DNA of 64,000 nt from Trypanosoma brucei (lineage: Eukaryota): assembly GCA_000002445.1 (NCBI GenBank), contig CP000067.1:256001-320000 (forward strand). Reading direction: 5' to 3'. The notes under the pieces are model-generated. The model had not been told where the DNA came from and ran no database searches. It saw only the letters and a list, made by a program, of their open reading frames with translations. Each line of letters opens with the position of its first letter. Position 1 is the stretch's first letter. Shown one piece after another: positions 12,584 through 61,984 of the stretch. The position numbers and the translations under genes were made by a program.

Positions 12584-13702
12584 TCAGTAAAATAACTTGC
12601 GGTACAACACCGAATCTCCCTCCTCCTCCATATCGGCACGTGTAATCCAAAGGGATGCAAAGGAGGAGCTATCTGTCGCCAAAGATGCGCCCACCCAGGC
12701 TCCGTCTACGGCACGAGACAAGTGGAAACCGCCCTCTTTTTCGTAACGAAAGTAACACGAATCCCTTTGCTGAACCTCTGTTAGCAACCGCTCACGGAAA
12801 CCGGGGGCCTGCGCCGTTCCACCACAAAGTGTGTGCGAAACGAACTGCAGTTGCCACTCGGGATCTAAACGCTGCTTGCAGCCCACAACAAGGTCCCCCA
12901 GTGAGCTCCCGAAACCACCAACCGAACGAAACAAAACCTCATATGCCTCCACTCGCGCCCGTCCTTCAACGGTAATGGCGCTCCCATCCGGGGCTCGTAA
13001 CACTAATGACCCTTCTTCCTTGTTACTTTCAGAAGCATCGGTACGAACGGTACATGCCAGTCGTTTAATGTCCCCAACCAAATCATCCATTGCTAATGCC
13101 CGCACGGTAGGAGTCTTGAATCGCGCCACACCTTCTAGTGCTTGTAACTGCTCACTGTCCAACATACCCTTGAGCACCTCCGTGACAACTTTGCCGGCAA
13201 CATCACTCGAAGCCACCGTTCCCCGCAGGGCGTAGCCGTCCAACACCGCAGCGGCGGTGGCGTGACTGTGCCCGACGTCCAACACGACGGTGGAACACTT
13301 CCCCGAGCTCAGTGCCCATGCAACACTTGGTCGTAGGCAATACAGAGCCGTTGCCACACCTGACTCCAATACGGAATGAAATAGCGCCCGCATCACGTCG
13401 AACCGCTCGTGCCACACCTCCGGGACCACGAGGGTGAGGGTTTCCTCCTTTAGGCAATGCAGCTCATCCCCAATAATGCGTGACAGGTAATCCATATTAG
13501 AGTCCCGCTGAGCATCCAAAGACTGTAATGTCCACATGGATGACACGCTCTCTGATCCTGCCCCATCCGCTGCCATTAGCACAGAGGGAAAACTTGTTTC
13601 AGCAGGCGGTTCCAACAAGTGAAGAGACGGAAACTGGCGCGCGCATCTTGTGTCACCAACATAACCAGCCCGCACATTCCATCCAATCTCCACTACTGCC
13701 AT
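12584..13702 (-). CDS. actin-related protein (actin/Hsp70 ATPase fold)
   Basis: AVVEIGWNVRAGYVGDTRCARQFPS resembles the actin N-terminus (lVcDNGSGm.KAGFAGDDAPRAVFPS). VVLDVGHSHATAAAVLDGYAL resembles actin vLDSGDGVtH.VPIYEGYAL. LCGGTAQAPGFRERLLTEV resembles LsGGtTMfPGiadRmqkEl. The ORF-track N-terminus (VCVCVFVC) is (CA)n translation with a GTG start; true ATG about 13702. Confidence 0.55.
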   Translation of the reverse strand: MAVVEIGWNVRAGYVGDTRCARQFPSLHLLEPPAETSFPSVLMAADGAGSESVSSMWTLQSLDAQRDSNMDYLSRIIGDELHCLKEETLTLVVPEVWHERFDVMRALFHSVLESGVATALYCLRPSVAWALSSGKCSTVVLDVGHSHATAAAVLDGYALRGTVASSDVAGKVVTEVLKGMLDSEQLQALEGVARFKTPTVRALAMDDLVGDIKRLACTVRTDASESNKEEGSLVLRAPDGSAITVEGRARVEAYEVLFRSVGGFGSSLGDLVVGCKQRLDPEWQLQFVSHTLCGGTAQAPGFRERLLTEVQQRDSCYFRYEKEGGFHLSRAVDGAWVGASLATDSSSFASLWITRADMEEEGDSVLYRKLFY

Positions 13703-14245: not shown

Positions 14246-15298
14246 TCAAACAAACGATTTTCGAACGGCTGCGCACAACCCGGCGTCTCTTCCTCTCCGT
14301 GCCAACTCCTCTGCTGCCAGTCTCGTTGGCATTCGGAAAGTTAATTGCTTTACTGTGTCCGGCACGTATGTCTCCTTCACGAAAAGTGTGGTGGCGAGGG
14401 CGCGGGCCCGCACCTCCTCCTCTGCGTTTTTAGCTGCCACACAAACCTCCCACACATCACTAGGCAGCAGCTGCGTTGTAATCGACTGCTCCCGACCAAC
14501 AGAAACACCACAGGAACCCGTAGAGTCCATTTGTATAGAAGAGGACACACAACCGCTAGTAGATGTAGGGGACTTGTGGAGTACTGATGGCGATACACGG
14601 GTACGTTTCACTTGGCAACGATGTAACATGCCGTCAGTATCGTGCATGAATAACTTACACTGCACACACTGCATGCAGGGAACGTGATAGCGTTCGTCTT
14701 GGTACACTTCACTTGCGCAGTGTGCGCAAAGATCCATACCGCATTCGCTACAGTTATAAAGGTAAGTTTCATCCACCGGTTCCGCCTCCGCAGGCAGAAG
14801 GCCCTCCGGGGGGAGTTTCTTTAACCTATGAGGCTTGGCGCGCACCTCCTTGTTTTTACACCAATGGGTCACCCCACAGAAATCGCACGTCACCTCCTCT
14901 GCACCACTGTAATCAGAGATTCTCTTGATGCATAATTCATGGCCATTCCAACAACGCCACAACTTCTCCACTGGATCATACAGTGGACTACCGCTCTGCA
15001 AGAGGTACGCCATAGTCGCCACGGTATTTGTTGTCATTTCCATCTTAACGGATGAATTCATGTCCTTCCCGATGCTTTCAGTTCGCTTCCGTTTTGCGGG
15101 TGCGCGTCGCAGTGGAGACTTCACATCCGAAATATCCCATACTGCGGAATGATCCTGCAATGCCATCGCCACGAAGGGCGAAATATCACTCGGAGCGAAG
15201 GGACATTTTCTTCCCAGGGTGGTTTCCGCCATATCTCCATCATTCTTATTTGCTTGACTCTTTTCCCTCATTGCGTACATTTCAGCAGCGGTGTCCAT
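14246..15298 (-). CDS. cysteine-rich zinc-finger protein (ZZ-type-like Cys cluster)
   Basis: ATG at 15298 checked. Cys/His clusters CDFCGVTHWCKNK and YNCSECGMDLCAHCAS...CMQCVQC fit a ZZ / B-box-like pattern. Confidence 0.5.
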   Translation of the reverse strand: MDTAAEMYAMREKSQANKNDGDMAETTLGRKCPFAPSDISPFVAMALQDHSAVWDISDVKSPLRRAPAKRKRTESIGKDMNSSVKMEMTTNTVATMAYLLQSGSPLYDPVEKLWRCWNGHELCIKRISDYSGAEEVTCDFCGVTHWCKNKEVRAKPHRLKKLPPEGLLPAEAEPVDETYLYNCSECGMDLCAHCASEVYQDERYHVPCMQCVQCKLFMHDTDGMLHRCQVKRTRVSPSVLHKSPTSTSGCVSSSIQMDSTGSCGVSVGREQSITTQLLPSDVWEVCVAAKNAEEEVRARALATTLFVKETYVPDTVKQLTFRMPTRLAAEELARRGRDAGLCAAVRKSFV

Positions 15299-18200
15299 CC
15301 CCTTAAATATTCAAGTGCCCCTTTTCCTCGCCTCGCGTCCACCACGCCTCAGGGAGCACTTAAAGAGAAAATTAAAACGAAAGAAAAAAAAAAAGGGAAA
15401 ACGGTGCGCCAATATAATTGGTACTCAAAAAAAAAAAGAAATGTGGTGTACAGACATATGTTTATATACACACATACATGCATTTATTTTGAAATAAAAA
15501 GAATGAAAAGATTAGAAAGGATTAGAAAAGAGAAAGGAGTAAGGTAAAGAAAAATAAAAATAAAAATAGAGAAGAGAAGACAGAAAAGACAGAAAAAAAC
15601 CCTGTGACTTATAACAAAGTACGTTCGTTAACCTCAGTAATGCACTAGGGTTCCATTTCTAGTAGTTTTTTTTTCCTTTTTTTTTTTGCTTTCCTCCTAA
15701 TTTCATTTTACTCTGACATGTAGTCGTTTCACTGTCCTCCCCCCTCCCCTCCCACATACCTTTTCCTTTCTTTCTTTTTTTTTTCCTCCCTCCCCCCTTT
15801 CCCTTCAGTTGCTCAGCGCATCTAAACAATACCACACACAGACACATAGCTTTAGTTTCTCCACACATTTACACAATTGTTTGCGCCATTGAAGGCTCTT
15901 TCATGCATCTGCATTAATGTTGCGAACACCCCCACAACGTGGGAACAAAATAACGGATGGAAGTGGTAATAATAATAATTATTATTATTATTATTATTAT
16001 TTAAAAAGAAAAGAAAGCAGTGAGGGAAGTGACAGCCGAGTGAGTGGCAATGGCGTGGCCGGTAGGCAAAACAATTTTGAGTTTCGGAATCTCCACCACT
16101 CGATTGTGTTGTCACCATTTCCTTCCAAAGTAAAAATTAAACAAAAAAGTGTTGTTGTTTTTTTTTTCTTCCATCATTCCGCCATTTCGATAGGGGGAGT
16201 CACAGACACACAAGAGCCGGCAATATGGCATTTGTTTTGTGGTGGTTATTGTGGTTGTTGTTTACTGCCTCCACATGTGTGGCAGTAAAGGAAAAAAAAG
16301 GGAAAAAGAAGAAGAAAGAAGAAGGAAGAAGGAATAAGGAATAAGGAAGGAAAAGAAAAAAGAAAAAAGAAAAAAAAACATCCTCACTTTTCCTCCACAC
16401 GAAAGCAAAACTGGCAATCCACGAGAAAACATGAGCCTCACATCTGAAAGATGTGAGTTCAAATAAAACAATTGCGCTTGCAACAAAACCCCGAACCAGC
16501 GGGGTTTCGTTACAAATGCGCATTGAAAAGGTATGGCAAAACGAAAAAAGAAAAGAAAAGAAAAGAAAAGAAAAGAGAAAAGATATGGACTGAAATGAGT
16601 TGACACACGGATGACTAGGGATGATAAATAAACAACTGCAACGGTTTTGATAAAACGACACGTGTTCTTTATGGACTTTTTTTTCTTTTCTTGCTTTTTT
16701 TGAAAGTTTGCCACTTATCGTTGGTTGTTGTTTCTTCATTTATTTATTCTTTTTTTTTTCCTCTCTTGGTTGTCCCGTCTTTCCGCACATCACATCTTGT
16801 TGTTCATTCCGCCACATCTCCACACACTCCTTTTGTTTTCCCTGAGTTATTGTTGTTGCTGTTGTTGTTGCTATATTATTATTGTTGTTATTACTATTAT
16901 TTCACATTTTTTTTCTTTTTAAACTACTTCCGTTTTCTTACGATTTCTTGGCTTTTTATTTTATTACATTTTATTTCATTTCATTTTTACCTCTTTTGTA
17001 CACTCTACCACACCTTTTCTTTTCTTTCCTTTTGTACTCTCACAATATCACCTCTACTTATTCCTTTCTTCAAACCACGGCAGAGGAAAACATGACACGA
17101 CAAATAATGAAATAAAATTAAGTTAACGATATAATTATATGAAGAAAAAAAAAAGAAAAAAAATGACGAGTTGACGCTGTGAAAAATCTACGAGGGAATG
17201 TCAAACAGCCGCTAAACTCAGTCCTCTCATTTGCCTGACGGGGAAACAAAAATGTGACGTGCATGAAAAAAAAAAAACAAAAAAAAAAGAAAATGAAAAT
17301 GAAAATGAAAAAGTGAAAACAAATGTTGGTAAAATAAATCATCGGACCCCGTCTTCATTTTAATTATCTTTATTATTATTATTGTTTTTTTTTACCGCTG
17401 CTGTTATTGTTATCAATAAGAAAAAGCACGCCGTGGTGATAAAAAAGAAAAAAAAGTGAGAGTAGAAGTAGAAAAAAAAAAAAATAAAACAACAACAACG
17501 TCAACAACAACAACAAAAAGAGGGAGAGGAGGTTTGATCAGCTGGCGGAAGAAAAAGTTGGGATCAAATTAAGATAACTTTCAAAAAAGAAAAAAAAAGA
17601 GAGAGGGGGAAAGGAAGGAAGGGAAATAAATAAATAAATGAGGGAGAGAAAGGGGGAAAAAAAAAAGAGAGAAAAGAGAAAAGGGAAGGAGAAGGAGAAG
17701 GGAAGGAAAAAGAAAAGAAAAGAAACTCCCATTCCCATTTACTTCACTTCATCACTGGCTTACTCACTTTACATGTGCGGTAATGTAAATATAAATACAT
17801 GTATAGACACATAAAGGAGTGCGGATACCCATACGGATATTCATACAGAAATAATATAAAGATAAACAAGATCGGTACATTGGTCTCATTCATCCACTTA
17901 CTCAATTTATTTATTTATTTGACTTTTGGTGACAACTGCGCGTTCATGGAGAAGAGGAAATCATGCAGTTTGAAGTGATGGAATTTTTTAAAAAAAAAAG
18001 CGGAGGTGCGTCCCATTTGACAAAAACATAACTCCTCACATTTTTTTTTTAAAAATGCTATTATTCTGTGGAGTTTTCTCCACCGAGGCCGAAGGATTAT
18101 TGATCATGGAAGAATTTGAAGAAATGGTGCACAATAATAATAATAAGTGATGGAAATGATGAAAAGGTGGGAAAACTTTAGAAAGAGGGCAGACAAATCC

Positions 18201-18999
18201 ACCACAAAGTGCAGCACCCTTCCGTAAACAATTTTTTTAAAAAGAAAACGTTCATGATTTCTCCTCCACTCGATCACTCACTCTTTCCTTCATTCTTTCA
18301 TTCATTCATTAACTGACAGAAGGGGAAAAGAAGAAAGAAGGTTAATAAATAAATAAATAAAAAGATGAATGGCCCGAGAGAAACACGCACATACGCGCGT
18401 CACGCAATCCACTGCGCAAACACATTCTGTTTTATATTAGCCAGGAGGAGATAAACAAAGGGGGAAAAGGGAGGGGCAAACAAACAAATAAAAACATAAA
18501 ATAGCATTAAAAGGGAAAAGCCGCAAAAAAAAAAAAAGCAAACGAAAACAAGGAGAAAAGAAAAAAGCCAGTTGCTTGAAGCATATCAAGAAAAACAGAG
18601 GCACGGGGAAGAAAAATAAGTGAATTTTGAAAAGTAATTATTTTTTTTTTGAAGGGAAATTTGCCTCACTGAAGTGCGGCAACAAACGCAGGCACGACAT
18701 GCGCATGTAAATATATATATTAAAATATGCGCCCCCGTGCCTGTTAAGGGGAGAGGAGGAAACACTCAAGGGAAAAAAGAGAAAGGGAAAATATGTGCCG
18801 CACTGACGTATATACTTCTGAAACATCACATACACAGGGACACATACACAGACACAAACACACACAAAAAAAAAAAAAACTGCCTCAAGGTTAATAAAAC
18901 TGGCTGAAAGGGAAAGAGAAGGGGAGGGGAAAAAAAAAAAATGGCGGCGGCCGCGGTTACGGCAAGGGGGAAAAAAATAGTAAATAAAAATGGGGTGCC
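15299..18999. repeat. 3.7-kb gene-free low-complexity region: alternating homopurine and homopyrimidine blocks, with (AAT/ATT)n, (GTT)n, (AAAG)n, (GAAAAT)n and (AAAT)n microsatellites
   Basis: No ORF over 180 aa, and only low-complexity translations. Visible runs: aataataataattattattatt (15958-15992), aaaagaaaagaaaag (16540-16580), ttgttgttgctgttgttgttg (16846-16870), gaaaatgaaaatgaaaatg (17291-17312). Confidence 0.85.
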
Positions 19000-19665
19000 C
19001 TACAGCTCCTGAGATCTTTCAGATGATTTTTTCAGCGACCTCACGGGCGGAAGAAACCCCTCGTCATCGCAAACAGCCCCACGGCGAGCTTCCAGCGGTG
19101 GTCGGACACCACTTCGCAGGCTCGCGTTGGATAACCGCTTCCCCGGCAGATCCACCAGAGACGAGGACATTTGCAGAGACTCGCAGCTTTCCTTTGATGA
19201 GTGGTATGTGCAATCGGAGCCGATGGATGAGCTCCGTGGGGATGGCGAAGACGCTTGATCCTGCCGCATGGCTTCGAATATGTAATTGAAATGTGGATGC
19301 GCATGACCCATCAACTGTTTCGTGGAATCCCCCTGTGGTGTTACAGGCGAATGGGGTTGCTCAGTAGGAGAAGGTATATGCTTCAATTTGTATTGACGAA
19401 ATGACAATTCCCCAAGTCGCATGAACACCAAGTGATTAAGCGCTCCCTCCTTCACAGCAGACTCATGAACCCGAAGCCGCTTATCCTTATACCCTTCCAG
19501 CGGGGCAAAAAACCAATTAACATAACCCTCAGGCTGCAACTCACCCACAAAACAATACCTTCTGTAGGAAAATGTACCCCCGAAATCCAACATGGGTGAG
19601 TAGCTGACCTTCGACAGAACCATGGGGACGCCGTCAACATTCATTTCCATAGGGAGCTCCATCAT
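19000..19665 (-). CDS. hypothetical protein (about 221 aa)
   Basis: ORF-track start 19689 is GTG; ATG at 19665 (MMELPMEMNV). N-terminal beta-rich region, Ser-rich tail. No confident family. Confidence 0.45.
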   Translation of the reverse strand: MMELPMEMNVDGVPMVLSKVSYSPMLDFGGTFSYRRYCFVGELQPEGYVNWFFAPLEGYKDKRLRVHESAVKEGALNHLVFMRLGELSFRQYKLKHIPSPTEQPHSPVTPQGDSTKQLMGHAHPHFNYIFEAMRQDQASSPSPRSSSIGSDCTYHSSKESCESLQMSSSLVDLPGKRLSNASLRSGVRPPLEARRGAVCDDEGFLPPVRSLKKSSERSQEL

Positions 19666-20639
19666 GACCGGACTGATGCGTAAAAGCACTACGCAACACC
19701 TGTGGTTATGATGTTAATTTTACCAACGAATGGAAGGTACAAAAGGGAATGCCAAAAACGACGGCAAGGGAAAAGATATAAATAGGTAAACGGGTATATA
19801 TAAAAAAGAATGATCAGAAATATATAAACCTTACCTTAGCCTATCCGATTGTTGTGAACAGCGAACAGACTTTGCCGAAATGAAACAGATGGTGCGCGCA
19901 CTGATGCAAAGGTAAAAACTTCGCGGGCGCAACACGTTAAAAATTTTTTTTTGGTTAAAATGTTTTCAAGAAGAAGGAAAAGAGAAGAGATGTCAAGATA
20001 TTGAGGGTCGAAACGACATGGGAAAGGCAAGGAGCAGAAACAAACAGCAGCAGCACGTAGCAATAAGGGAAAGGAGGAAACAAAATTATAAAAAGTAGTT
20101 GTGGGGGGGGGGTCGACAACATGTGAACTTGTTCGCATGTTGAAGGAGGAAGTACTGGAAACTGGCACACGGTTTCAGGAATGTGGAAAAGAAAAAAACT
20201 TTTAAGGTAGAAAAGATCGGATGAGCGCATACGCCTCGGCAGCAATATCCCACACGCACAAAAACATATGCCCAAAGCGACATTCACTTCGCTGCAAACC
20301 TCCAGCGCATCCTCGCGGTAACCCCACCATCTGTTCGCATTTCCTCTCACTGTCCCCCTTCTCCTTTTCCACCCGACCGTCACATACGCTTCATACTCTT
20401 GTCGGTTACTCCCAGACGCGTTAACACTTGGTAGAGATTTTCAAAATGCCATCCGTCCCTTGCAATCCCCCTTCGCCACACGCACGCACACATATATATA
20501 TATATATCTACGCAGAGGCATGATGGGCCCCTCGTCACTGCAAGTAATAGTAAATAAGATAAAACAAAATAAACCAAATCCACTGAGCAATTTGTGATGT
20601 CCACAAATGTTTCTCCGATTTGATCGAGACGTCCATGGC

Positions 20640-22112
20640 TCAAACAAAAACACTCTTCACCGCTTCAGTGATAACTTTAGCGGCCCGCAGCAACTCATCC
20701 TCTGTGGCTGTTCCCTTTACAAGAATGCGCAGCGCCGAAAAGTTGCTGCATGCCTCCTCCTTAGAGAAGAGATGGCGAGTAAGAAGAACACCTTTTCGCC
20801 TTGCCGCTTCCACGACCTGCTGTAACTCCTCCTCTACCTTTTGATGGTGGCACTTCACATAAGCGTCGGTTGGGCGCAGGATCACAATTGGGGACACATC
20901 ACCAGCGCACTCCACCAAAGTAATCTTTTCGGGATTCATTCCAGCGCTCCGGATGGCACCACGAAAGAGACCAGCATTTCTTTGAAGTTTTTCGGGGAAT
21001 GAATGGTCCTCATCCAGAAGTTTCAACACGGCCGAAACACCGGCTGTAATGTAAGGGGCAAGAGAAGCAGAAAAGACGTAAGCGGCAGCTGTAAGTCGCT
21101 GGTATTCGATAATAGCGTGCTCTCCAGCACAGAAACCGCCGACTCCACCCATGGCCTGACTTAAGCTTCCAACATATAAATCAATCCGCGTGGTGGGAAT
21201 ACCATAGTGTTCATGCGTACCGCGCCCCGTGGGGCCCATGCAACCGAAACCACAACTGTCATCGAGAATAATACGAAATTTGTACTTCTCACAGAGCTCC
21301 AAAACCTGTGGGAGTTTGCACACATCGCCCAGGTTCTTGAAGACGCCCTCGGTCACCACAAACCTTCTTGAGAGCTTTTTCTCCTTCATTTCTTTTATCT
21401 GCACCTCTCGCAGAATCTCCTCAAGATGCGCCATGTCATTGTGTCGGTACTTGAGCAGGTTCGCACGGGACAACGTGCAGCCTTCGTGTACGGGAAGACT
21501 AACACCATCATCAACGATTAGATAGTCCCCCCTCGATGCGTGACATGGAATAAGCGTTGAAATCGTAGCAAAGGAGAAACTAAAGATGAGGGAATCTTCA
21601 ACACCAAGAAACTTGGCAATGTCTTCCTCCAGCACCATGTGGGGCTTAATCGTACCATAAAACCCACGGGGGCCACAGCTGCCAACGCCGTACGCCACCA
21701 CAATCTTCTTGGCCACATCCACCACCGTGGGATGCGTTGAAAAGGAGTGAAAATCCTCCGTCACGAGGTCAAGGTACTCTCTGCTGCTTGAATCCGATTC
21801 GTCCCGCAGCGTGATGTAGCAGCTATTACGTGCCTCCACCTCTGACATTCCGGTGCGGTTGGGCAGTTGTGTGTTGGCGTTTGGTTTCGCGTCGGCTCTA
21901 AACATCTGCGACCGGAACGCGGCAATTCGGCGCTGTTGCTCCTCCAGCGGTGGCAATTCCGGCTCAACTATTTTTGAAGTGTTGCGCCTACGGATGAAAT
22001 GCAGGGCCAATGCAACTGCGAGGGCCGCCGCCAGAAGGGCCTCGAGTAATAGATGAGAAAACTCTGAGAACGCCAGCGGTGCAGTGGATGAAAGAGTCTT
22101 AAATCCCACCAT
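20640..22112 (-). CDS. SPT1: serine palmitoyltransferase subunit 1 (LCB1-type alpha-oxoamine synthase lacking the PLP lysine)
   Basis: N-terminal TM helix, then an aminotransferase class I/II fold. YVGSLSQAMGGVGGFCAGEHAIIEYQRLTAAAYVFSASLAPY matches the SPTLC1 region GSLeKAlGasGGFCcG...QRLsgqGYcFSASLPP, with no catalytic Lys. ATG at 22112 checked. Confidence 0.75.
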   Translation of the reverse strand: MVGFKTLSSTAPLAFSEFSHLLLEALLAAALAVALALHFIRRRNTSKIVEPELPPLEEQQRRIAAFRSQMFRADAKPNANTQLPNRTGMSEVEARNSCYITLRDESDSSSREYLDLVTEDFHSFSTHPTVVDVAKKIVVAYGVGSCGPRGFYGTIKPHMVLEEDIAKFLGVEDSLIFSFSFATISTLIPCHASRGDYLIVDDGVSLPVHEGCTLSRANLLKYRHNDMAHLEEILREVQIKEMKEKKLSRRFVVTEGVFKNLGDVCKLPQVLELCEKYKFRIILDDSCGFGCMGPTGRGTHEHYGIPTTRIDLYVGSLSQAMGGVGGFCAGEHAIIEYQRLTAAAYVFSASLAPYITAGVSAVLKLLDEDHSFPEKLQRNAGLFRGAIRSAGMNPEKITLVECAGDVSPIVILRPTDAYVKCHHQKVEEELQQVVEAARRKGVLLTRHLFSKEEACSNFSALRILVKGTATEDELLRAAKVITEAVKSVFV

Positions 22113-48639: not shown

Positions 48640-50803
48640 CGCAACGAGAGGCAAGCACCTTATACAAATTATTCGGGCTTGAAGAGCAGTGTTTTAAAAA
48701 AGTCAAAAGAAGAAGGGACATGTAACGAAGCAGCAAATATAATAATCAGTGGAGAAGAAAGCCGGGAATAGACATAGCAGGAGTTAATGAGACGCTGCCG
48801 GAACACAGCCAATAAATGTTGGCCAGTGGAGCTCCTCTAGTGACACGCAACCTTAATCTCTTTCCAGATATGAAACTCCCATTCCAACGCACTTTAGCTC
48901 ATAGCGCACCACCACCACCACTAGCTCACGCCACAGCGCGGGTACGACGGTACTGCTGGGATTGCGTTTGAACTTTTGCCCTCTGTAGTGGCGTTGAGAC
49001 CGAAGTAACTAGTGTGTCAGGTAAACTCAACAGCAAACAGAGATATGATAACGACTACGCGCCAACTCCTGCGTCCACAAGTACTTCGCCACATTCCAAG
49101 CTCACAACTGAAACTTAAATGATAGCCAAAGAGTCTAATCCAACACCTCTACACGTTGAGTCAGCTGCAGCCCATCCTGGTCACTCGTCAACGGAAAACA
49201 CAAGTGCACACCACTGAGAGCTGCTGGGAAGTCAAAACTGTAAGTAGACTGCATACCTCAATCCTCAGTCCTTTGTGTGTGTTCAACCTCCAGACACGTA
49301 GCATATACACAACTTTGCGCGCACAGATTGTTCCAGCCCCACCCATACACCACCAAAAACGTCAAGAATGTTCCCTCCCCCGCTCTGCCGTCTGTCACAC
49401 CTAATCTTCATCCCTCAACACCACAGCCACCTCTCCGCACACTGCTGCAGCAGTTGATGGCTGTGGTCAATCAGACCAACCTCCAACCGACACTGTTAAC
49501 ACCGCACCACTCTCGAATTAGTGAAAAGATGACATGCGTCGTCCAGTCGGTCGAACAACAAATATTGCAGGTCTACACCATCACGCAGGCAAACCAGCAG
49601 AATCCCACAACTTACCCAACAATAAGTGAAGCAATGCTCATCAGCGGTGTCAGGACTTTCTCTCCCGTAGCAAAAAGCCAACTATGATGTGTCACGGAGC
49701 CCCCTAGTACTCTTCCTAAACCCCACAGCAACCGTGCGTGGAGCGGGCCCAACACAATTTGAAGCTCTCTAGGCGCTTCAACAAACTGTGAAGTGCCTTC
49801 GTTTCTTCCTTCGCATGCATTTGCAAACAGAGCACAGCACCCGACTCGTTGCTGTCAACCTCAAACTGATATCTCGGCAGTTCTCCCCTTATGAAAGTAC
49901 CGGCCTTCCGATGGGAAAAGGTATATCAGCGAGAGGACATTGCGAAATATATCCGAACGACACAGCCTGAAATCAGTGCAAAACGTCGTACCGCTCCTCT
50001 CCATCCGTCTACCGCAAATAACTGGCGAGCAGATGTTTTGCGTGACCTGCAGGTTGCATCGAAATGTTGAGAGAATGAACAACATGTAACCAAGGTAATA
50101 CCAGCCCCCGTTCACACCTGTGAAACGATATCCATGTACGTACTGTTCAAAAGCAGACTTACCAAGCCATATAGCAGGGGTGAGGATCCGTTGCAAAGCG
50201 AAGGGGACAGACGACGTATAAAGGGTAAAAGCGAAAGGCACAACAAGGGATATTTCACCGCAGTAGCACCATAGCTACGCCTAAGCCCAGTACGAGCCCA
50301 TATAGCAACAGAGCCGTTGACCATCGCGCAAAAAACGAGTTTAATCGCGCATGAGTTGAGAGTCTACGTCCAGCAACTGACCGAAGGGTGCGACGTAGGG
50401 TTGAAACAAAAACCAAGTGGTGGTCACCTACGACAATACAGCGCCTTAATGTGCGGCAAAGATCGTCCAATTAGAGCCTAGGTAATCCCCGAACTCACAC
50501 ACGTGGTGTACATGAAGCTATGTAGTACAAACATCGAACGCCTATGAACATATCAACCATTTAAATGTACCATCTCGACCGAATGTCGCGAATTTGTGCG
50601 CGCAAGACCGACCAAACAACACAAAACTGAGCTAGTGATAGAACCAAGGCCACTGAACTGGGTACGGTTAAGGGGCGTTTTGTGATACTCTACACCGTCC
50701 CGACACCTCAAGTGCGTGAATTAAGCAATAAAAAATGCTGCGAGGTTAACCACCGAAACAGCAACCCTGCGGATCGGTACCCGCACCGGACGTCGATACT
50801 CTA

Positions 50804-53530
50804 TCACGACCATTTTTTAAGGAAAGGGTTGACGAGCACGTCCGGGTCGTCTGAAGAATCCCTCTTCCCCTCGACGACAGGAGGTATATCGCCACCCCAA
50901 ACGTGTCTCGTGGGCTGCGGAGAACCAGCTTGGTGACGCTGCGTGAAGTTCAGTGGCGCTGCGGGATACCCCGCGCTTGCTGCCGTTGGTGGTTTTGGAT
51001 GTGCTAACGAAGTCTTACTGGGCCCCATGCTTAGCTGTTTCACGGCAGAAGTTGGAACGGGCGCAAGATTCACCACAGGGGGCAGTGGGGCCGACACGCC
51101 TGCTGCAGCACCCGGAAATAGTTCCGCGGGACCACTCTGTGGTCCACCTTTAATAGGGTGGACTTCAGCCGCCTGATCTCCATGATGCTGCAGGTTCGTT
51201 GAAACCCTTCCAGCACATTGGAATTGCACTTCATTCGCTGATACCCTTTCCGTTTTAAAGTGTCTCCTTTGCTTCCAGCATTGTTGCAAAAATCCAGACG
51301 CGCTGACAGCAACAATACTAATAACTGTGAAAAAAAGTGTGCTCATATTTATCGAAGACGTTTCGCCTCCGTAAGTTCCCACATCACCACCAGCGAACGG
51401 GTTAGCATCGAGGGTTTGAGACTGCCCTGGAGCAGGTGTATTGCCGTGACTATCACCTACAGTGGTATTATCACTGGCGGTACAGCGGCAACCACCAACC
51501 GAAAAATCAGACTTATCTCGACCCCCTTGAACTGCTTCGTCGGTTAATCCAACAGTGTCCACGATTTTCGCCACAACCTGCCTAAGCTTCATAACACCTT
51601 CACGGCACTCGGGCACCAATTGATTCTGAACAACGCAGCGCCCCCTCATATTATACACATCGTCACCAATCAGGCTGGCGAGTGCGCTCGCGTCGTCAGC
51701 CAACTGCTTCAAAAGCACAACAAAATCCGTTCCATCCTCTCTGGTCTCTTCTAAAGAGACCTTGCCATCCCTCTCATAACGTTTCTGCAACTCAGTTTCA
51801 TCATCATCAGGTTGCTGTGGCTCAGCTTCATTATCATCAGGTTGCTGTGGCTCAGCTTCATTATCATCAGGTTGCTGTGGCTCAGTTTCATTATCATCAG
51901 GTTGCTGTGGCTCAGTTTCCTTATCATCAGGTTGCTGTGGCTCAGCTTCATTATCATCAGGTTGCTGTGCCTCAGTTTCCTTATCATCAGGTTGCTGTGC
52001 CTCAGTTTCATTATCATCAGGTTGCTGTGGTTCAGTTTCCTTATCATCAGGTTGCTGTGCCTCAGTTTCCTTATCATCAGGTTGCTGTGCCTCAGTTTCC
52101 TTGTCATCAGGTTGCTGTGCCTCAGTTTCCTTATCATCAGGTTGCTGTGGTTCAGTTTCCTTATCATCAGGTTGCTGTGCCTCAGTTTCCTTATCATCAG
52201 GTTGCTGTGCCTCAGTTTCCTTGTCATCAGGTTGCTGTGCCTCAGTTTCCTTATCATCAGGTTGCTGTGCCTCAGTTTCATTATCATCAGGTTGCTGTGG
52301 TTCAGTTTCCTTATCATCAGGTTGCTGTGCCTCAGTTTCCTTATCATCAGGTTGCTGTGCCTCAGTTTCCTTGTCATCAGGTTGCTGTGCCTCAGTTTCC
52401 TTATCATCAGGTTGCTGTGCCTCAGTTTCATTATCATCAGGTTGCTGTGCCTCAGTTTCATTATCATCAGGTTGCTGTGGCTCAGTTTCCTTATCATCAG
52501 GTTGCTGTGCCTCAGTTTCATTATCATCAGGTTGCTGTGCCTCAGTTTCATTATCATCAGGTTGCTGTGCCTCAGTTTCATTATCATCAGGTTGCTGTGC
52601 CTCAGTTTCCTTATCATCAGGTTGCTGTGCCTCAGTTTCCTTATCATCAGGTTGCTGTGGCTCAGTTTCCTTGTCATCAGGTTGCTGTGCCTCAGTTTCA
52701 TTATCATCAGGTTGCTGTGCCTCAGTTTCATTATCATCAGGTTGCTGTGCCTCAGTTTCCTTATCATCAGGTTGCTGTGCCTCAGTTTCCTTGTCATCAG
52801 GTTGCTGTGCCTCAGTTTCCTTGTCATCAGGTTGCTGTGCCTCAGTTTCATTGTCATCAGGTTGCTGTGGTTCACTTTCATTATCATCAGGTTGCTGTGC
52901 CTCAGTTTCCTTATCATCAGGTTGCTGTGCCTCAGTTTCCTTATCATCAGGTTGCTGTGGTTCACTTTCATTATCATCAGGTTGCTGTGCCTCAGTTTCC
53001 TTGTCATCAGGTTGCTGTGCCTCAGTTTCATTGTCATCAGGTTGCTGTGGTTCACTTTCATTATCATCAGGTTGCTGTGCCTCAGTTTCCTTATCATCAG
53101 GTTGCTGTGCCTCAGTTTCCTTATCATCAGGTTGCTGTGGTTCACTTTCATTATCATCAGGTTGCTGTGCCTCAGTTTCCTTGTCATCTGGCGGCTTTAC
53201 ACGAGCTGATCCATTGGTGGTGTGTGCTGCATCCCTCTCCTCTTCGTTGTGGTTTTTGGCTCTCATCACTTGGCTGCCGCGGCCCACGTTGTTCTCGTCC
53301 GCCTCCTGACGTCCTTGGGCGCCAGTCTTGAGCTGAGTATCGGTTCTGTGGAGGCCGCCATCGCCTTCGACAGGAAACCGAGGTGCTCTGTTGCTTCTGC
53401 GCACTGCTTTCAATGTCCGTGCCTCGCCCACTTTACCTGTGTTAGCGTGTGCTATACAAGTAGAACACCAGCCTGCAACGCATGACACAACGGTTAACAG
53501 AAGTATCTTTGCGGTGTGGAGATGACGCAT
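50804..53530 (-). CDS. repetitive acidic type I membrane (surface) protein: signal peptide, about 47 copies of a QQPDD(K/N)E(T/S)E(A/P) decapeptide, an about 150-aa domain, TM helix, and a Pro-rich cytoplasmic tail
   Basis: ATG at 53530. N-terminal signal peptide MRHLHTAKILLLTVVSCVAGWCSTCIAHA. TM helix LFFTVISIVAVSASGFLQQCW at about residue 735. It is the only one of six open frames across the repeat with a signal peptide, a TM helix and the strand of the gene array. Confidence 0.75.
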   Translation of the reverse strand: MRHLHTAKILLLTVVSCVAGWCSTCIAHANTGKVGEARTLKAVRRSNRAPRFPVEGDGGLHRTDTQLKTGAQGRQEADENNVGRGSQVMRAKNHNEEERDAAHTTNGSARVKPPDDKETEAQQPDDNESEPQQPDDKETEAQQPDDKETEAQQPDDNESEPQQPDDNETEAQQPDDKETEAQQPDDNESEPQQPDDKETEAQQPDDKETEAQQPDDNESEPQQPDDNETEAQQPDDKETEAQQPDDKETEAQQPDDKETEAQQPDDNETEAQQPDDNETEAQQPDDKETEPQQPDDKETEAQQPDDKETEAQQPDDNETEAQQPDDNETEAQQPDDNETEAQQPDDKETEPQQPDDNETEAQQPDDNETEAQQPDDKETEAQQPDDKETEAQQPDDKETEAQQPDDKETEPQQPDDNETEAQQPDDKETEAQQPDDKETEAQQPDDKETEAQQPDDKETEPQQPDDKETEAQQPDDKETEAQQPDDKETEAQQPDDKETEPQQPDDNETEAQQPDDKETEAQQPDDNEAEPQQPDDKETEPQQPDDNETEPQQPDDNEAEPQQPDDNEAEPQQPDDDETELQKRYERDGKVSLEETREDGTDFVVLLKQLADDASALASLIGDDVYNMRGRCVVQNQLVPECREGVMKLRQVVAKIVDTVGLTDEAVQGGRDKSDFSVGGCRCTASDNTTVGDSHGNTPAPGQSQTLDANPFAGGDVGTYGGETSSINMSTLFFTVISIVAVSASGFLQQCWKQRRHFKTERVSANEVQFQCAGRVSTNLQHHGDQAAEVHPIKGGPQSGPAELFPGAAAGVSAPLPPVVNLAPVPTSAVKQLSMGPSKTSLAHPKPPTAASAGYPAAPLNFTQRHQAGSPQPTRHVWGGDIPPVVEGKRDSSDDPDVLVNPFLKKWS
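51791..53190. repeat. tandem array of about 47 near-identical 30-bp units (consensus plus strand ttatcatcaggttgctgtgcctcagtttcc)
   Basis: Directly visible in the sequence. Units differ at 3-4 positions only (c/a, g/c, a/g), which gives the K/N, T/S and A/P alternations. All six frames are open across it. Confidence 0.95.
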
Positions 53531-56826: not shown

Positions 56827-58057
56827 TTGATTTGGTGGCGAGTGATATCAGATCTTGACGTCGAGCTAATGAGACTCAGTACGAAAAAAGTGCACGCAAC
56901 CTTTGTTTTCGTGGCAATGACAAAAGGTTCAAGTACCTTTAATGTGCGTAAAGAAGTTTTTTATAAAAAACTAAATTCATTTTTTGAAGCCCCACCAATC
57001 GGAACCCATCCACTCCTTCAATACTAACCACAGTGAAGTACTGGGATGTTATCGTGCAAAATAAAAAGGGTTGTGCATACGTGCTTATGCAACATAATTG
57101 ATTTCGTTCCACCCCCGTGTCAGATTTTCCTGGTTAGCACCTCCAACGTTTTGCTGGTACCTTTAAACGACAAATCTGTTTAGACAACATAGGAAAAGGC
57201 AAAGGAGTGAAAAGAAAACGTTAAAGGTGCCGCTGAAGGTTTGCACCACCTCAAAAAAACAAATAAATAAATAAAACGACGGTGGGGTAGAGAAGCGACT
57301 GCTGGTGGCGTAAACGGTGGATGCTGCAACCTCCGAAAAATGGCATATCTCTCTCAGGTCGTGGAGAGCAAACCATTCAACTAGAATGGCGAAAAGGAAG
57401 CACGGCAGACAAGTGCGCTTCTTCAAATCGCACGCACGCACGCACCATCACAGTGAAAAGGGGTATATGACACCTTTAGTTGGCTTCATGAACCAATGTA
57501 CAAATATTAGTAATACCATGTCCGAAAAATACAAGTCGCATTGCGCAATCAAACCGACGACGGGTTTGAGAAAGATGTGCCTTCAAGTAGTTGGTAAAAG
57601 GAGGGAAAGTTCGTACACACAAGCGAATGTGAGAGAGCCGCAATAATGGTTTCCCCGCTCTTCTGTTATTACACCGCCTGAATGAGACATTGTCCCTTCC
57701 CATCACCCTCAACAAGTTGATTACACCCATGGCACCAAATCTCCGCGTTGTGGAAACACGCGGCACGCCCATAATAAGCAGGCAAACTCACTACCACCCC
57801 ACACACATTTACGTCATTGGGAAGTTCTTGGCGCTCAACTTGGCTTGGGTGACAGATACAGCATTTTTTCTCTAGTTTCAGCGGCATAAAAATGGTTAGC
57901 TGCGGTTGAGCAGGACGTCAACAATCGTTAAATTCGGTGAATGGATCCTCCCCACCACCCCACCACCAAAAGGGAAAAAATGCAATCACGCGCAAACACG
58001 GCAAATCATAAAAACGCACTGAGGGGCCGCTTGATCATTAGGTAACCACACATTTGC

Positions 58058-58060
<3 letters not shown>

Positions 58061-58088
<28 letters not shown>
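58061..58088. repeat. (AC)n microsatellite
   Basis: acacac... x14 at 58061-58088. Confidence 0.9.
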
Positions 58089-61000: not shown

Positions 61001-61905
61001 AAAAAAAAAACTAACCTAATGAGGAGGGGCACAATGGAAGAAAATGCCCTGAAAGGACCGTGACACTTCGCCAGCACCATGGAAATCAAGCACGATTCTT
61101 CCAATCGCTTATAAAGGCACGAGTTTGACCACTCGCGTTTAACCTGGAATAGCAGAAGCCAGCAATCACTGTGTTCCAGATGGGGACCGTTATCCAGGCA
61201 TCGCAAGGCGGACCCGCTGCAACAGATACTTCTGTAAGACTAGGAAATATTCAAACAGAGAAATAGGTGAGGAAAACTGTATTTGTTCGAGGTGAAAAAA
61301 AACTCCCAGGAGCATCTGCCAACAAACACACGGGTGTGGAGTTCGGTGTAATCGCCCCCTGATGGTGGCGGGGGCGGCGTACCCTTAGAGGGGCTAAGTT
61401 CACGCGCAAGATGGGAACGCAGCCAAATATGCTTAAAAGCAGGTACAGTCACTCGCTTCAATGGGGGTGATAGCCTCGGACGGCGCGGTAGAACCCGAGT
61501 GGACACACTTCTGAGGCCACACCATCCTCACCACGTTACATCCGAATGCGGTGCTGGAACTTGCTTCGCCCGCGAATTTTATTGAAGGCACAGTGTCTTT
61601 CCAACGGGGAAAGAGGTTACCTCTGATGAGAGGATGTGTGAAATCACCGCCACACTCTATCTCCAAACGGCATTGGGGAAAAATTGGAAAGGTGGCGGAA
61701 ATAACTGCAGGGCCCTCTCCCGAAAAGGAAGAAAAAAGTCGCCATTAGCGCTTCCTACGACAAAATGTGAAAGCTTTGTACATCTTTATGAAGGATTGGA
61801 AAGAAAAACGAGGGGAAGTATTTTAGAACACACTCCGTCACTGACGAAAGCGGAAACCCCAGGGCGAGGCCGACACCTCGTCACTCACCCTTCCCACTAG
61901 ATGCG

Positions 61906-61910
61906 GAAAA
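61906..61910 (-). terminator. Pol III terminator T-run (T5) downstream of the tRNA-Pro
   Basis: Minus-strand GC then TTTTT follows the discriminator base (plus strand aaaaa at 61906-61910). Confidence 0.5.
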
Positions 61911-61912
61911 AG

Positions 61913-61984
61913 CGGGCCGTTGCGGGAATCGAACCCGCGGCCTCCTGTACCCGAAACAGGAATCATGCCACTAGACCAAACGGC
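61913..61984 (-). tRNA. tRNA-Pro (anticodon CGG)
   Basis: Minus-strand read GGCCGTTTGGTCTAGTGGCATGATTCCTGTTTCGGGTACAGGAGGCCGCGGGTTCGATTCCCGCAACGGCCC. 7-bp acceptor stem GGCCGTT/AACGGCC. A box TGGTCTAGTGG. Anticodon stem CCTGT/ACAGG with loop TTCGGGT (anticodon CGG, G37). B box GGTTCGATTCC. Nearly identical to canonical eukaryotic tRNA-Pro. Confidence 0.85.

What the first reader, a model, noticed from the sequence alone, without database searches (positions are those of the whole stretch)
15299..18999. A 3.7-kb gene-free, extreme low-complexity block inside an otherwise tightly packed polycistron
Most spacers in this unit are 0.2-1.1 kb, but this one is 3.7 kb. It consists of alternating homopurine and homopyrimidine blocks of 100-400 nt that swap strands, for example plus-strand pyrimidine at 15660-15830 and 16670-17090, and purine at 16290-16400 and 17420-17730. 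Several microsatellites are interspersed. Such mirror and homopurine tracts can form triplex (H-DNA) and slow polymerases. It could be an unusually long regulated 3'UTR of the 19000-19665 gene plus a 5'UTR, an internal termination and re-initiation boundary within the directional gene cluster, or a locus for an unannotated long non-coding RNA. Low-complexity regions like this are also frequent sites of assembly error.
Basis: partly seen in the sequence, partly recalled or inferred. Interest (0 to 1): 0.55.

Follow-up and report, generated by a model that had tools for sequence, protein, structure and literature searches.

The report
Long 3'UTR of a trypanosome gene
The 3.7-kb "empty" stretch is the already-mapped, unusually long 3' untranslated tail of the highly expressed Trypanosoma brucei gene Tb927.4.1000, followed by the normal splicing signal and short leader of the next gene, so it is an ordinary though large feature.

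Summary
The window is Trypanosoma brucei TREU927 chromosome 4, 256,001-320,000 (window = chromosome coordinate - 256,000). 15299-18999 is the longest of 28 inter-CDS spacers (3701 bp, median 468). It is AT-rich, and 22.8% of it lies in pure purine or pyrimidine runs of 12 nt or more, against 2.8% in shuffles.

Published end-mapping (Kolev 2010) accounts for every base:
- 3'UTR of Tb927.4.1000: predominant poly(A) site at window 15491, 3509 nt.
- 132-nt processed-out segment carrying the polypyrimidine tracts.
- AG splice acceptor at 15360-15359.
- 60-nt 5'UTR of Tb927.4.990.

These sum to 3701. The same study places both genes in one Pol II unit with no internal start and lists no separate transcript here. 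A catalogued lncRNA model (KS17gene_5275a) overlaps this UTR. It falls together with the mRNA on DRBD3 depletion, so it is probably part of the UTR.

Four Trypanozoon assemblies give 3650-3701 bp, so this is not an assembly error. The orthologous spacer is also the longest local one in T. cruzi and T. theileri, and in T. vivax apart from an unexamined 1890-bp gap (1.3-1.7 kb).

Verdict: already known and ordinary.

The parts
19000..19665 (-). CDS of Tb927.4.1000. It encodes a 221-aa, 24.8-kDa conserved hypothetical protein and is the gene that owns the long 3'UTR.
   Evidence: The protein is identical to TREU927 AAZ10691 and the computed mass is 24.8 kDa. The N-terminal ~100 aa are 35-45% identical to the syntenic genes of T. 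cruzi, T. theileri and T. vivax. [quoted passage not shown]
15491..18999 (-). Predominant 3'UTR of Tb927.4.1000, 3509 nt. In the RNA sense it is 38% U, with 23 pure pyrimidine tracts and 8 pure purine tracts of 15 nt or more across the whole spacer.
   Evidence: Kolev 2010 Table S13 gives the predominant PAS at chr4:271491 and a 3'UTR of 3509 nt. The averaged PAS is 271777 (3223 nt) and the dispersion is 289. The coordinate offset of 256000 was verified at three points and by the AG acceptors. Tract list. Base composition.
15359..15490 (-). Segment between the predominant poly(A) site and the splice-acceptor site, discarded during processing. It carries the polypyrimidine tracts (RNA sense) at 15379-15401 (23 nt) and 15427-15441 (15 nt), and the AG acceptor at 15360-15359.
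   Evidence: The sequence was read directly. The PAS-to-SAS distance is 133 nt. Kolev 2010 reports a median of 142 nt with an interquartile range of 123-178.
15299..15358 (-). 5'UTR of Tb927.4.990, 60 nt without the spliced leader.
   Evidence: Kolev 2010 Table S12 gives the SAS at chr4:271357/8 and a 5'UTR of 60 nt. CT at 15359-15360 on the plus strand corresponds to AG on the minus strand.
14246..15298 (-). CDS of Tb927.4.990, a 350-aa conserved hypothetical protein and the downstream gene.
   Evidence: The protein is identical to TREU927 AAZ10690 / P0012. Orthologues occur across Trypanosoma.
17583..17725 (.). Largest purine/pyrimidine tract cluster: 44-nt and 86-nt pure purine runs on the plus strand, which are polypyrimidine in the mRNA. 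It lies in one of the subspecies indel hot spots.
   Evidence: Run list. In the four-strain alignment, indel columns reach 9-16% across 17479-17878.
16287..16583 (.). Purine-rich cluster on the plus strand, with pure runs of 48, 36 and 41 nt. It includes (AAAAG)6 at 16546-16576, the best perfect mirror repeat in the spacer.
   Evidence: Indel hot spot.
15666..15806 (.). Pyrimidine-rich block on the plus strand, with pure runs of 22, 19 and 48 nt. It is purine-rich in the mRNA.
16671..17095 (+). Pyrimidine-rich block. Its plus-strand translation is annotated as a 141-aa ORF in T. b. gambiense and is judged spurious.
   Evidence: The gambiense ORF (L008 4184-4609) maps here with a 1-nt indel relative to TREU927. 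Its product is a poly-L/F/Y low-complexity peptide.
18400..18826 (-). Region annotated as a second 141-aa ORF in T. b. gambiense. It is judged spurious.
   Evidence: The ORF (L008 2523-2948) maps here with a 1-nt indel. In TREU927 it is split into ORFs of 75 and 55 aa.

Best explanation
The block is the 3' untranslated region of Tb927.4.1000, followed by the usual inter-mRNA processing signal and the short 5'UTR of Tb927.4.990.

Shown or supported by published data:
- RNA polymerase II transcribes it right to left as part of one long polycistronic unit that starts next to the tRNA-Pro gene near window 62 kb.
- The polypyrimidine tracts at 15379-15401 and 15427-15441 (RNA sense) direct spliced-leader addition at the AG at 15360-15359.
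- Coupled to that, the upstream mRNA is cleaved and polyadenylated about 133 nt upstream, at 15491.
- The Tb927.4.1000 mRNA therefore carries about 3.5 kb of U/C-tract-rich and A/G-tract-rich tail. A minority of molecules end at more CDS-proximal sites.

Inferred:
- The 20-odd internal polypyrimidine tracts are mostly not used as splice signals. They probably serve as a binding platform for pyrimidine-tract and U-rich RNA-binding proteins, namely DRBD3/PTB1 and RBP3.
- These proteins would keep this long mRNA unusually abundant and keep cryptic processing sites silent.
- The low-complexity tracts grow and shrink by replication slippage. That would explain the two- to three-fold expansion in the T. 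brucei lineage.
For: Identity of the window:
- The flanking proteins are identical to TREU927 AAZ10689, AAZ10690, AAZ10691 and AAZ10693.
- An offset of 256000 fits the stop codon, both ATGs and both AG acceptors.

End mapping (Kolev 2010):
- The predominant 3'UTR is 3509 nt, with PAS at 271491 (window 15491).
- The Tb927.4.990 SAS is at 271358 (window 15358), with a 60-nt 5'UTR.
- 3509 + 132 + 60 = 3701, the whole spacer.
- The PAS-SAS distance of 133 nt lies inside the genome-wide interquartile range of 123-178 nt.

Transcription context:
- There is a single Pol II unit, Tb927.4.1190 to Tb927.4.300.
- No novel transcript is listed between chr4 137 kb and 313 kb.
- None of the 8 chr4 nanopore lncRNAs lies here.

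Expression and regulation:
- The mRNA is abundant, at 18.7 copies per cell against a median of 3.
- It is among the nine hypothetical genes Jensen discusses from the 50 most highly expressed in cultured bloodstream forms.
- RBP3 binds this mRNA.
- DRBD3 depletion lowers the mRNA by 1.41 log2 and the overlapping lncRNA model by 1.5 log2. The downstream gene changes by only +0.13.

Conservation and coding potential:
- The orthologous spacer is the longest annotated one locally in T. cruzi (1302 bp) and T. theileri (1666 bp). In T. vivax (1437 bp) it is exceeded only by a 1890-bp gap where those two species carry a phosphoglucomutase gene; I did not check that gap.
- No Pfam hit, and the ORFs are frame-broken between subspecies.
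- No Rfam hit.
Against: - I saw only the tabulated transcript ends, not read coverage, so continuity of the RNA from the stop codon to 15491 is inferred.
- The end-mapping data come from procyclic T. b. rhodesiense YTat1.1 mapped on the TREU927 reference. Bloodstream-form poly(A) sites could not be checked because the Siegel 2010 supplements are not held.
- The averaged 3'UTR (3223 nt) is 286 nt shorter than the predominant one. Some molecules therefore end earlier, and I do not know where.
- A separate lncRNA gene model has been drawn in this interval by others.
- High abundance runs against the usual inverse relation between mRNA length and abundance. The stabilising role proposed for the tracts is an inference, and the DRBD3 effect may be indirect, as that paper itself notes for lncRNAs.
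Confidence: 0.9

Rival explanations
1. Part of the interval is an independently processed long non-coding RNA (the catalogued KS17gene_5275a). It would be released by spliced-leader addition at one of the internal polypyrimidine tracts and would have a function of its own, as with grumpy.
For: - A lncRNA model exists between Tb927.4.1000 and Tb927.4.990.
- The 3'UTR holds more than 20 polypyrimidine tracts that could act as splice signals.
- Some poly(A) sites lie upstream of the predominant one. The averaged 3'UTR is 286 nt shorter than the predominant one, and the dispersion is 289.
- In T. brucei several lncRNAs can be processed either alone or as part of a neighbour's UTR.
Against: - The model is listed as overlapping Tb927.4.1000 and changes in lock-step with it on DRBD3 depletion: -1.5 vs -1.41 log2 in bloodstream forms, and -1.1 in procyclics.
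- The authors state that 50-60% of such down-regulated lncRNAs are embedded in UTRs, and that many are segments of longer mRNAs.
- Kolev 2010 lists no novel trans-spliced transcript here, and Tb927.4.1000 does not appear in its table of genes with alternative UTR processing sites.
- The nanopore direct-RNA lncRNA list has nothing here.
- No Rfam family matches, and there is no sequence conservation outside Trypanozoon.
Confidence: 0.08
2. The block is an internal boundary of the gene cluster, where Pol II terminates and re-initiates, marked by histone variants or base J.
For: - It is the longest and most AT-rich spacer in the array.
- Tb927.4.1000 is expressed far above its neighbours. That could naively suggest a promoter nearby.
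Against: - Kolev 2010 mapped Pol II start regions with 5'-triphosphate libraries. It lists one uninterrupted unit from Tb927.4.1190 to Tb927.4.300, of type 'next to tRNA', with no 'Internal' unit here.
- The highly expressed gene lies upstream of the block in the direction of transcription, so a start site inside the block could not explain its level.
- The poly(A) site and the next splice site are 133 nt apart, which is the normal coupled-processing geometry.
- GC skew does not change sign here, unlike at about 62 kb.
Confidence: 0.02
3. The purine/pyrimidine tracts act at the DNA level, as H-DNA (triplex) or R-loop-forming sequences that slow polymerases or affect replication. This would be in addition to the block being a UTR.
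For: - Pure R.Y runs reach 86 nt, and 22.8% of bases lie in runs of 12 nt or more.
- Perfect mirror repeats are about 15-fold denser than in the other spacers.
- Genome-wide DRIP-seq in T. brucei finds R-loops concentrated in inter-CDS regions. Polypyrimidine and poly(A) motifs are enriched in them, and they track poly(A) site density.
Against: - Only 101 bases lie in perfect mirror repeats with arms of 10 nt or more, and these are short and A-rich. The long tracts are not mirror-symmetric.
- R-loop association is a general property of all T. brucei inter-CDS regions, and RNase H1 loss causes no gene-expression change.
- Downstream genes are expressed, so there is no polymerase block.
- I saw no locus-specific data.
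Confidence: 0.1
4. The length is an assembly artefact of low-complexity sequence, or the interval hides a protein-coding gene.
For: - Low-complexity DNA is prone to mis-assembly.
- The T. b. gambiense annotation places two 141-aa ORFs in the interval.
Against: - Four assemblies are collinear along the whole interval: TREU927 3701 bp, T. equiperdum OVI 3691 bp (70 N), T. b. equiperdum IVM-t1 3688 bp (no N) and T. b. gambiense DAL972 3650 bp (no N). Identity is about 95-96%, and the differences are small indels in repeats.
- The mapped 3'UTR length, processed-out segment and 5'UTR sum to the assembled length.
- The gambiense ORFs are poly-F/L/Y translations of pyrimidine tracts. Each carries a 1-nt indel relative to TREU927.
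- No Pfam hit for the longest ORF.
Confidence: 0.01

Closest known systems
Long regulatory 3'UTRs of Trypanosoma brucei mRNAs (for example RBP10, ZC3H20-22, and many RNA-binding-protein and kinase mRNAs, several kb long)
   Same: - Multi-kb 3'UTR inside a polycistronic unit.
- Full of low-complexity sequence and unused polypyrimidine tracts.
- Bound by or dependent on RNA-binding proteins (RBP3, DRBD3).
- The poly(A) site is set by the next gene's splice signal.
   Different: - The mRNA is very abundant (18.7 copies per cell, among the 50 most highly expressed in cultured bloodstream forms). Long 3'UTRs are generally linked to low abundance.
- The encoded protein is a small conserved hypothetical, not a known regulator.
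UTR-embedded lncRNA models of the Guegan et al. catalogue, as re-examined by Ceballos-Perez et al. 2025
   Same: KS17gene_5275a is listed as overlapping Tb927.4.1000 and is co-regulated with it. This fits the class of 'lncRNAs' that are segments of longer mRNAs.
   Different: grumpy and TblncRNA-23 can be processed independently and go up on DRBD3 loss. This model goes down together with its host mRNA.
Canonical trypanosomatid inter-CDS processing region (polypyrimidine tract, AG acceptor, coupled upstream polyadenylation)
   Same: A 23-nt tract lies 18 nt upstream of the AG, and the PAS is 133 nt upstream of the SAS. The genome-wide median is 142 nt.
   Different: None at the processing site itself. 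Only the length of the UTR upstream of it is unusual, about 9 times the 388-nt median.
H-DNA-forming homopurine/homopyrimidine mirror repeats, and R-loop-prone inter-CDS regions of T. brucei
   Same: It has R.Y tracts of up to 86 nt and a few perfect mirror repeats. Its sequence class matches the DRIP-seq-enriched motifs.
   Different: Mirror symmetry is weak, no structural or locus-specific data are available, and transcription demonstrably passes through.

Membership tests
Trypanosomatid 3'UTR plus inter-CDS processing region within a polycistronic unit | Lies between two same-strand CDSs of one Pol II transcription unit | tested here: met
   All 29 CDSs from 506 to 56826 are on the minus strand. 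Kolev Table S14 lists a single unit from Tb927.4.1190 to Tb927.4.300.
Trypanosomatid 3'UTR plus inter-CDS processing region within a polycistronic unit | Spliced-leader acceptor AG preceded by a polypyrimidine tract upstream of the downstream CDS | tested here: met
   The AG is at 15360-15359 on the minus strand. Tracts lie at 15379-15401 and 15427-15441. The mapped SAS is at window 15358.
Trypanosomatid 3'UTR plus inter-CDS processing region within a polycistronic unit | Poly(A) site of the upstream gene roughly 100-180 nt upstream of that splice site | tested here: met
   The predominant PAS is at window 15491, 133 nt from the SAS. The genome-wide interquartile range is 123-178 nt.
Trypanosomatid 3'UTR plus inter-CDS processing region within a polycistronic unit | Continuous transcript from the stop codon to the poly(A) site | not testable with these tools
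   Only tabulated transcript ends were available. Support is indirect. The authors assigned the PAS to Tb927.4.1000, no novel transcript is listed in between, and the UTR-overlapping model is co-regulated with the CDS.
Trypanosomatid 3'UTR plus inter-CDS processing region within a polycistronic unit | No protein-coding or structured-RNA gene inside | tested here: met
   The longest ORF has no Pfam hit. The annotated gambiense ORFs are frame-broken in TREU927. There are no Rfam hits at E<=1 and no tRNA.
Internal Pol II transcription start or termination region | Mapped primary (5'-triphosphate) transcript starts, or a listed 'Internal' unit boundary | tested here: not met
   Kolev Table S14 has no boundary between Tb927.4.1190 and Tb927.4.300.
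Internal Pol II transcription start or termination region | Chromatin marks: H2A.Z/H2B.V/H4K10ac for starts, H3.V/H4.V/base J for stops | not tested
Independent lncRNA (grumpy-like) | Its own spliced-leader site and poly(A) site, distinct from the neighbouring mRNAs | tested here: not met
   Kolev Table S7 lists no novel trans-spliced and polyadenylated transcript here, and the nanopore lncRNA list has no entry. This covers procyclic and cultured forms only.
Independent lncRNA (grumpy-like) | Abundance uncoupled from the flanking mRNAs | tested here: not met
   On DRBD3 depletion in bloodstream forms, KS17gene_5275a changes by -1.5 log2 and Tb927.4.1000 by -1.41 log2. The model is listed as overlapping that gene.
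H-DNA-forming sequence | Homopurine/homopyrimidine tract with mirror symmetry, arms of about 10 nt or more | tested here: inconclusive
   There are 22 overlapping hits covering 101 bases, the best being (AAAAG)6. The longest R.Y tracts (86, 48 and 48 nt) are not mirror-symmetric.
H-DNA-forming sequence | Triplex formation under supercoiling or in vivo | not testable with these tools
   Requires chemical or enzymatic probing.

The most novel reading that the evidence does not exclude
The most novel reading still open has two parts.

1. The array of more than 20 polypyrimidine tracts is a selected DRBD3/PTB1 (and RBP3) landing platform. It would make a 4.5-kb mRNA one of the most abundant in the cell, against the usual rule that longer mRNAs are scarcer, while also masking cryptic splice sites.

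2. In some life-cycle stage not sampled here, unmasking would release an independent spliced-leader-capped RNA (KS17gene_5275a) and a short-UTR form of the mRNA.
Probability: 0.12. Interest if true: 0.3.

Novelty: already known. Interest (0 to 1): 0.1.

Why it matters
It matters little beyond bookkeeping. The ends of this transcript were mapped in 2010, and the interval already carries a UTR annotation and a lncRNA model in the community database.

Two small points may interest specialists:
- Tb927.4.1000 combines a 3.5-kb 3'UTR, about 9 times the median, with very high mRNA abundance and DRBD3 dependence. That makes it a convenient natural test case for two questions: how long, tract-rich UTRs can stabilise rather than destabilise an mRNA, and why internal polypyrimidine tracts go unused.
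- The case shows that 'lncRNA' models inside long UTRs need end-to-end read evidence before being treated as genes.

For a genome scan, the lesson is that in trypanosomatids multi-kb, purine/pyrimidine-rich, gene-free spacers are expected UTR material and should not be flagged as anomalies.

Tried and rejected
- **Hidden structured RNA.** Rfam at gathering threshold on the whole window found only tRNA-Pro at 61914-61985. Rfam at E<=1 on 15200-19100 found nothing, and ARAGORN found nothing in the spacer. Rejected.
- **Hidden protein gene.** The 179-aa ORF at 16200-16739 has no Pfam hit. The two T. b. gambiense 141-aa ORFs are low-complexity and frame-shifted in TREU927. Rejected.
- **Conserved element across Trypanosoma.** Sensitive blastn of the spacer against the orthologous spacers of T. 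vivax, T. cruzi and T. theileri gave only short low-complexity matches. There is no deep conservation.
- **Constraint within Trypanozoon.** The four-strain alignment shows 1.7% substitution columns in the spacer against 0.75-1.5% in the CDSs, and 6.5% indel columns against 0. There is too little divergence to say anything about constraint.
- **Dispersed repeat or retroelement origin.** Blastn of the spacer against the rest of the window, with and without dust filtering, gave no hits.
- **Known 3'UTR motifs.** In the RNA sense there are two UAUUUUUU (the motif I recall as the RBP10 site), no UUGUACC (PUF9, likewise from memory) and 12 AUUUA. I had no background model, so these counts are not interpreted.
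- **Exact-protein contig look-up** of the 350-aa protein failed, although the identical TREU927 sequence is in the cluster table. I worked around this through orthologues.
- **Word-index homology search** with the 221-aa protein found only Trypanozoon copies. Orthology to the other species had to be shown by synteny and blastp.
- **Supplements not held.** Those of Siegel 2010 (bloodstream poly(A) sites) and Guegan 2022 (lncRNA coordinates) are not available. The exact coordinates of KS17gene_5275a and the bloodstream-form PAS therefore remain unchecked.
- **Bacterial promoter/terminator scan.** Not run, as it is irrelevant to a trypanosome.


Full report
**What the window is.** Every long ORF from 506 to 56826 is on the minus strand. 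A tRNA-Pro sits at 61914-61985. The proteins flanking the finding are identical to T. brucei brucei TREU927 entries:
- the actin-like protein at 12584-13702 is AAZ10689;
- the 350-aa protein at 14246-15298 is AAZ10690;
- the 221-aa protein at 19000-19665 is AAZ10691;
- the serine palmitoyltransferase at 20640-22112 is AAZ10693.

Literature links the locus tags: Tb927.4.980 is 'Actin', Tb927.4.1020 is serine-palmitoyl-CoA transferase, and Tb927.4.1000 is a 25-kDa protein. I computed 24.8 kDa for the 221-aa protein.

Published chromosome coordinates minus 256,000 reproduce the window coordinates of the stop codon and ATG of Tb927.4.1000 and the ATG of Tb927.4.990. At both published splice-acceptor positions the minus strand carries AG, seen as CT at 15359-60 and 19919-20 on the plus strand. 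The window is therefore Tb927 chromosome 4, 256,001-320,000.

**Checking the observation.** The interval 15299-18999 is 3701 bp and is the longest of 28 inter-CDS spacers. The median is 468 bp, 26 of 28 are 180-1146 bp, and the next longest is 2164 bp.

| Measure | This spacer | Other spacers | CDS | Shuffles (n=300) |
|---|---|---|---|---|
| GC | 0.357 | 0.457 | 0.511 | - |
| Bases in pure R or Y runs >=12 nt | 22.8% | 6.2% | 1.1% | 2.8 +/- 0.9%, max 5.7% |

There are 31 pure runs of 15 nt or more, up to 86 nt, and many microsatellites. Perfect mirror repeats are sparse, 101 bases in all, although about 15 times denser than in the other spacers.

**Is the length real?** Three further Trypanozoon assemblies are collinear with the window through the whole interval:

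| Assembly | Spacer length | N in spacer |
|---|---|---|
| T. b. brucei TREU927 (window) | 3701 bp | 0 |
| T. equiperdum OVI | 3691 bp | 70 |
| T. b. equiperdum IVM-t1 | 3688 bp | 0 |
| T. b. gambiense DAL972 | 3650 bp | 0 |

The gambiense and IVM-t1 spacers are about 95-96% identical to the window, and OVI is 94.6% identical including its 70 N. The differences are small indels concentrated in the repeat tracts. Assembly error is excluded.

**What is transcribed.** The supplementary tables of Kolev et al. 2010 (PMC2936537) give the mapped ends:
- For Tb927.4.1000, the predominant poly(A) site is at 271,491 (3'UTR 3509 nt). The averaged site is at 271,777 (3223 nt), and the dispersion is 289.
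- For Tb927.4.990, the splice-acceptor site is at 271,357/8, with a 60-nt 5'UTR.

In window coordinates the 3'UTR is 15491-18999. The processed-out piece is 15359-15490 and contains pure polypyrimidine tracts (RNA sense) at 15379-15401 and 15427-15441. The 5'UTR is 15299-15358. The sum 3509 + 132 + 60 is 3701, so every base of the finding is accounted for.

The 133-nt distance between poly(A) site and splice site lies within the genome-wide interquartile range of 123-178 nt, median 142. The mean signed shift (286 nt) almost equals the dispersion (289 nt). From this I infer that the minor poly(A) sites lie nearly all on the CDS-proximal side.

A 3.5-kb 3'UTR is about 9 times the 388-nt median but inside the reported range of 10 to about 6000 nt. 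In the part of Table S13 that I read (chromosomes 1-3, roughly 200 annotated genes), 4 genes have a predominant 3'UTR of 3.5 kb or more and 7 have 3 kb or more.

**Testing the other readings.**
- *Boundary.* Kolev's Table S14 lists one Pol II unit, Tb927.4.1190 to Tb927.4.300, minus strand, 'next to tRNA', with no internal unit. A boundary is not supported.
- *Separate transcript.* Kolev's list of 1,114 novel trans-spliced and polyadenylated transcripts has nothing between chr4 137 kb and 313 kb. The nanopore direct-RNA lncRNA list has 8 chr4 entries, none near 271-275 kb.
- *The lncRNA model.* KS17gene_5275a does exist between the two genes. In Ceballos-Perez et al. 2025 (PMC12592628) it is listed as overlapping Tb927.4.1000. 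On DRBD3 depletion it falls by 1.5 log2 in bloodstream forms and 1.1 in procyclics. The mRNA falls by 1.41, and Tb927.4.990 changes by +0.13. Those authors state that 50-60% of down-regulated lncRNAs are embedded in UTRs and that many are segments of longer mRNAs. The simplest reading is that this model is part of the 3'UTR.
- *Hidden genes.* Rfam finds nothing even at E<=1. The longest ORF has no Pfam hit. The two 141-aa ORFs annotated in T. b. gambiense are poly-F/L/Y peptides, each frame-shifted by a 1-nt indel in TREU927.

**Comparative view.** Synteny is conserved across Trypanosoma: IP5 2-kinase, DUF501, aminotransferase, the 221-aa orthologue, the 350-aa orthologue, then actin-like. The 221-aa protein shares a conserved N-terminal domain of about 100 aa (35-45% identity) with its syntenic counterparts.

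The orthologous spacer is 1437 bp in T. vivax, 1302 bp in T. cruzi and 1666 bp in T. theileri. In T. cruzi and T. theileri it is the longest annotated spacer locally, the neighbours being about 200-700 bp. In T. vivax it is exceeded only by a 1890-bp gap at the position where those two species carry a phosphoglucomutase gene. I did not check whether that gap hides an unannotated gene. The T. cruzi L003 value of 2255 bp is an N-filled gap.

There is no sequence similarity to the T. brucei spacer beyond low complexity. A long tail on this gene is therefore ancestral in length but not in sequence. It expanded two- to three-fold in the T. brucei lineage. Within Trypanozoon the interval changes mainly by indels in its repeat tracts, with 6.5% indel columns against none in the CDSs and 1.7% substitution columns against 0.75-1.5%.

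Purine/pyrimidine-rich spacers are the norm in T. cruzi and T. theileri. Reviews describe trypanosomatid UTRs as riddled with low-complexity sequence and unused polypyrimidine tracts.

**How it most likely works.**
- *Shown by published data and sequence.* Pol II reads through the interval. The tract-plus-AG signal at 15360-15441 directs spliced-leader addition to Tb927.4.990. It also directs coupled polyadenylation of Tb927.4.1000 at about 15491.
- *Inferred.* The internal tracts are pyrimidine in the RNA for 23 of the 31 runs. They are not used as splice signals, in line with the general preference for the tract nearest the downstream AUG. They may be masked by DRBD3/PTB1, which inhibits trans-splicing when tethered at a tract and whose loss activates cryptic sites elsewhere.
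- *Supporting facts.* The mRNA is bound by RBP3. It depends on DRBD3 for its level. [quoted passage not shown]
- *Caveat.* This suggests the tail stabilises the mRNA, which goes against the usual inverse relation between length and abundance. Whether DRBD3 acts directly on the tracts was not shown.

**DNA-level properties.** R-loops in T. brucei are concentrated in inter-CDS regions, with polypyrimidine and poly(A) motifs enriched in them. This interval is likely R-loop-prone like its peers. Nothing indicates a special role, and the triplex potential is weak.

**Verdict.** The finding is a correct description of an ordinary, already-mapped feature: the long, low-complexity 3'UTR of Tb927.4.1000, followed by a canonical processing signal. 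Novelty: already known. Interest: low.

Noticed in passing
window 51791-53188 (inside the 908-aa ORF 50804-53530, minus strand): A 30-bp unit is repeated 46.6 times at 94% match, giving a 10-aa tandem-repeat protein. The repeat opens long ORFs in several frames on both strands and gives an extreme AT skew of -0.49. The excerpt of Kolev's splice-site table that I saw lists no site between Tb927.4.1150 and Tb927.4.1170.
   Followed up: no
window 56827-64000: This is the head of the transcription unit. A 5-kb stretch with no long ORF holds two published 'novel transcripts': Tb4.NT.8 (window 56978-59834, -) and Tb4.NT.9 (59995-61239, -). Next comes tRNA-Pro(CGG) at 61914-61985 (-), then the plus-strand gene Tb927.4.1200, whose SAS is at window 63455. 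GC skew changes sign at about 61-62 kb.
   Followed up: partly
window 19955-20230 (minus strand): Tb927.4.1010 is an annotated 92-aa 'hypothetical protein' just upstream of the Tb927.4.1000 splice site (19918). Kolev 2010 lists it among ORFs with no detectable transcript. It is probably not a gene but part of the spacer between the serine palmitoyltransferase gene and Tb927.4.1000.
   Followed up: partly
window 48640-50803: This is the second-longest spacer (2164 bp). Unlike the finding, it has CDS-like GC (0.49) and almost no purine/pyrimidine tracts (0.6% in runs of 12 nt or more). No minus-strand ATG ORF of 100 aa or more lies in it.
   Followed up: no
window 14246-15298 (Tb927.4.990): The 350-aa downstream protein has no Pfam hit but carries Cys/His-rich stretches, for example CSECGMDLCAHCASE...CMQCVQC. 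A table in PMC12592628 records a 'kinetochore' localisation for its C-terminal tag.
   Followed up: no
window 19000-19665 (Tb927.4.1000): This is a small protein with a conserved N-terminal domain of about 100 aa and a divergent Ser/Pro-rich tail. It has no Pfam family. The word-index search finds it only in Trypanozoon, although syntenic orthologues exist in T. vivax, T. cruzi and T. theileri. The mRNA is very abundant despite its 3.5-kb 3'UTR.
   Followed up: partly
L008 2523-2948 (+) and 4184-4609 (-), T. b. gambiense DAL972: Two 141-aa ORFs are annotated as genes inside the orthologous spacer. They are low-complexity translations and are not preserved in TREU927, so they are likely annotation artefacts.
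   Followed up: yes
L002 13720-15609 (T. vivax) compared with L004 and L006: T. cruzi and T. theileri carry a phosphoglucomutase gene between the 207-215-aa gene and the WD40 gene. T. brucei and the T. vivax annotation show none there. T. vivax has a 1890-bp unannotated gap at that position.
   Followed up: no
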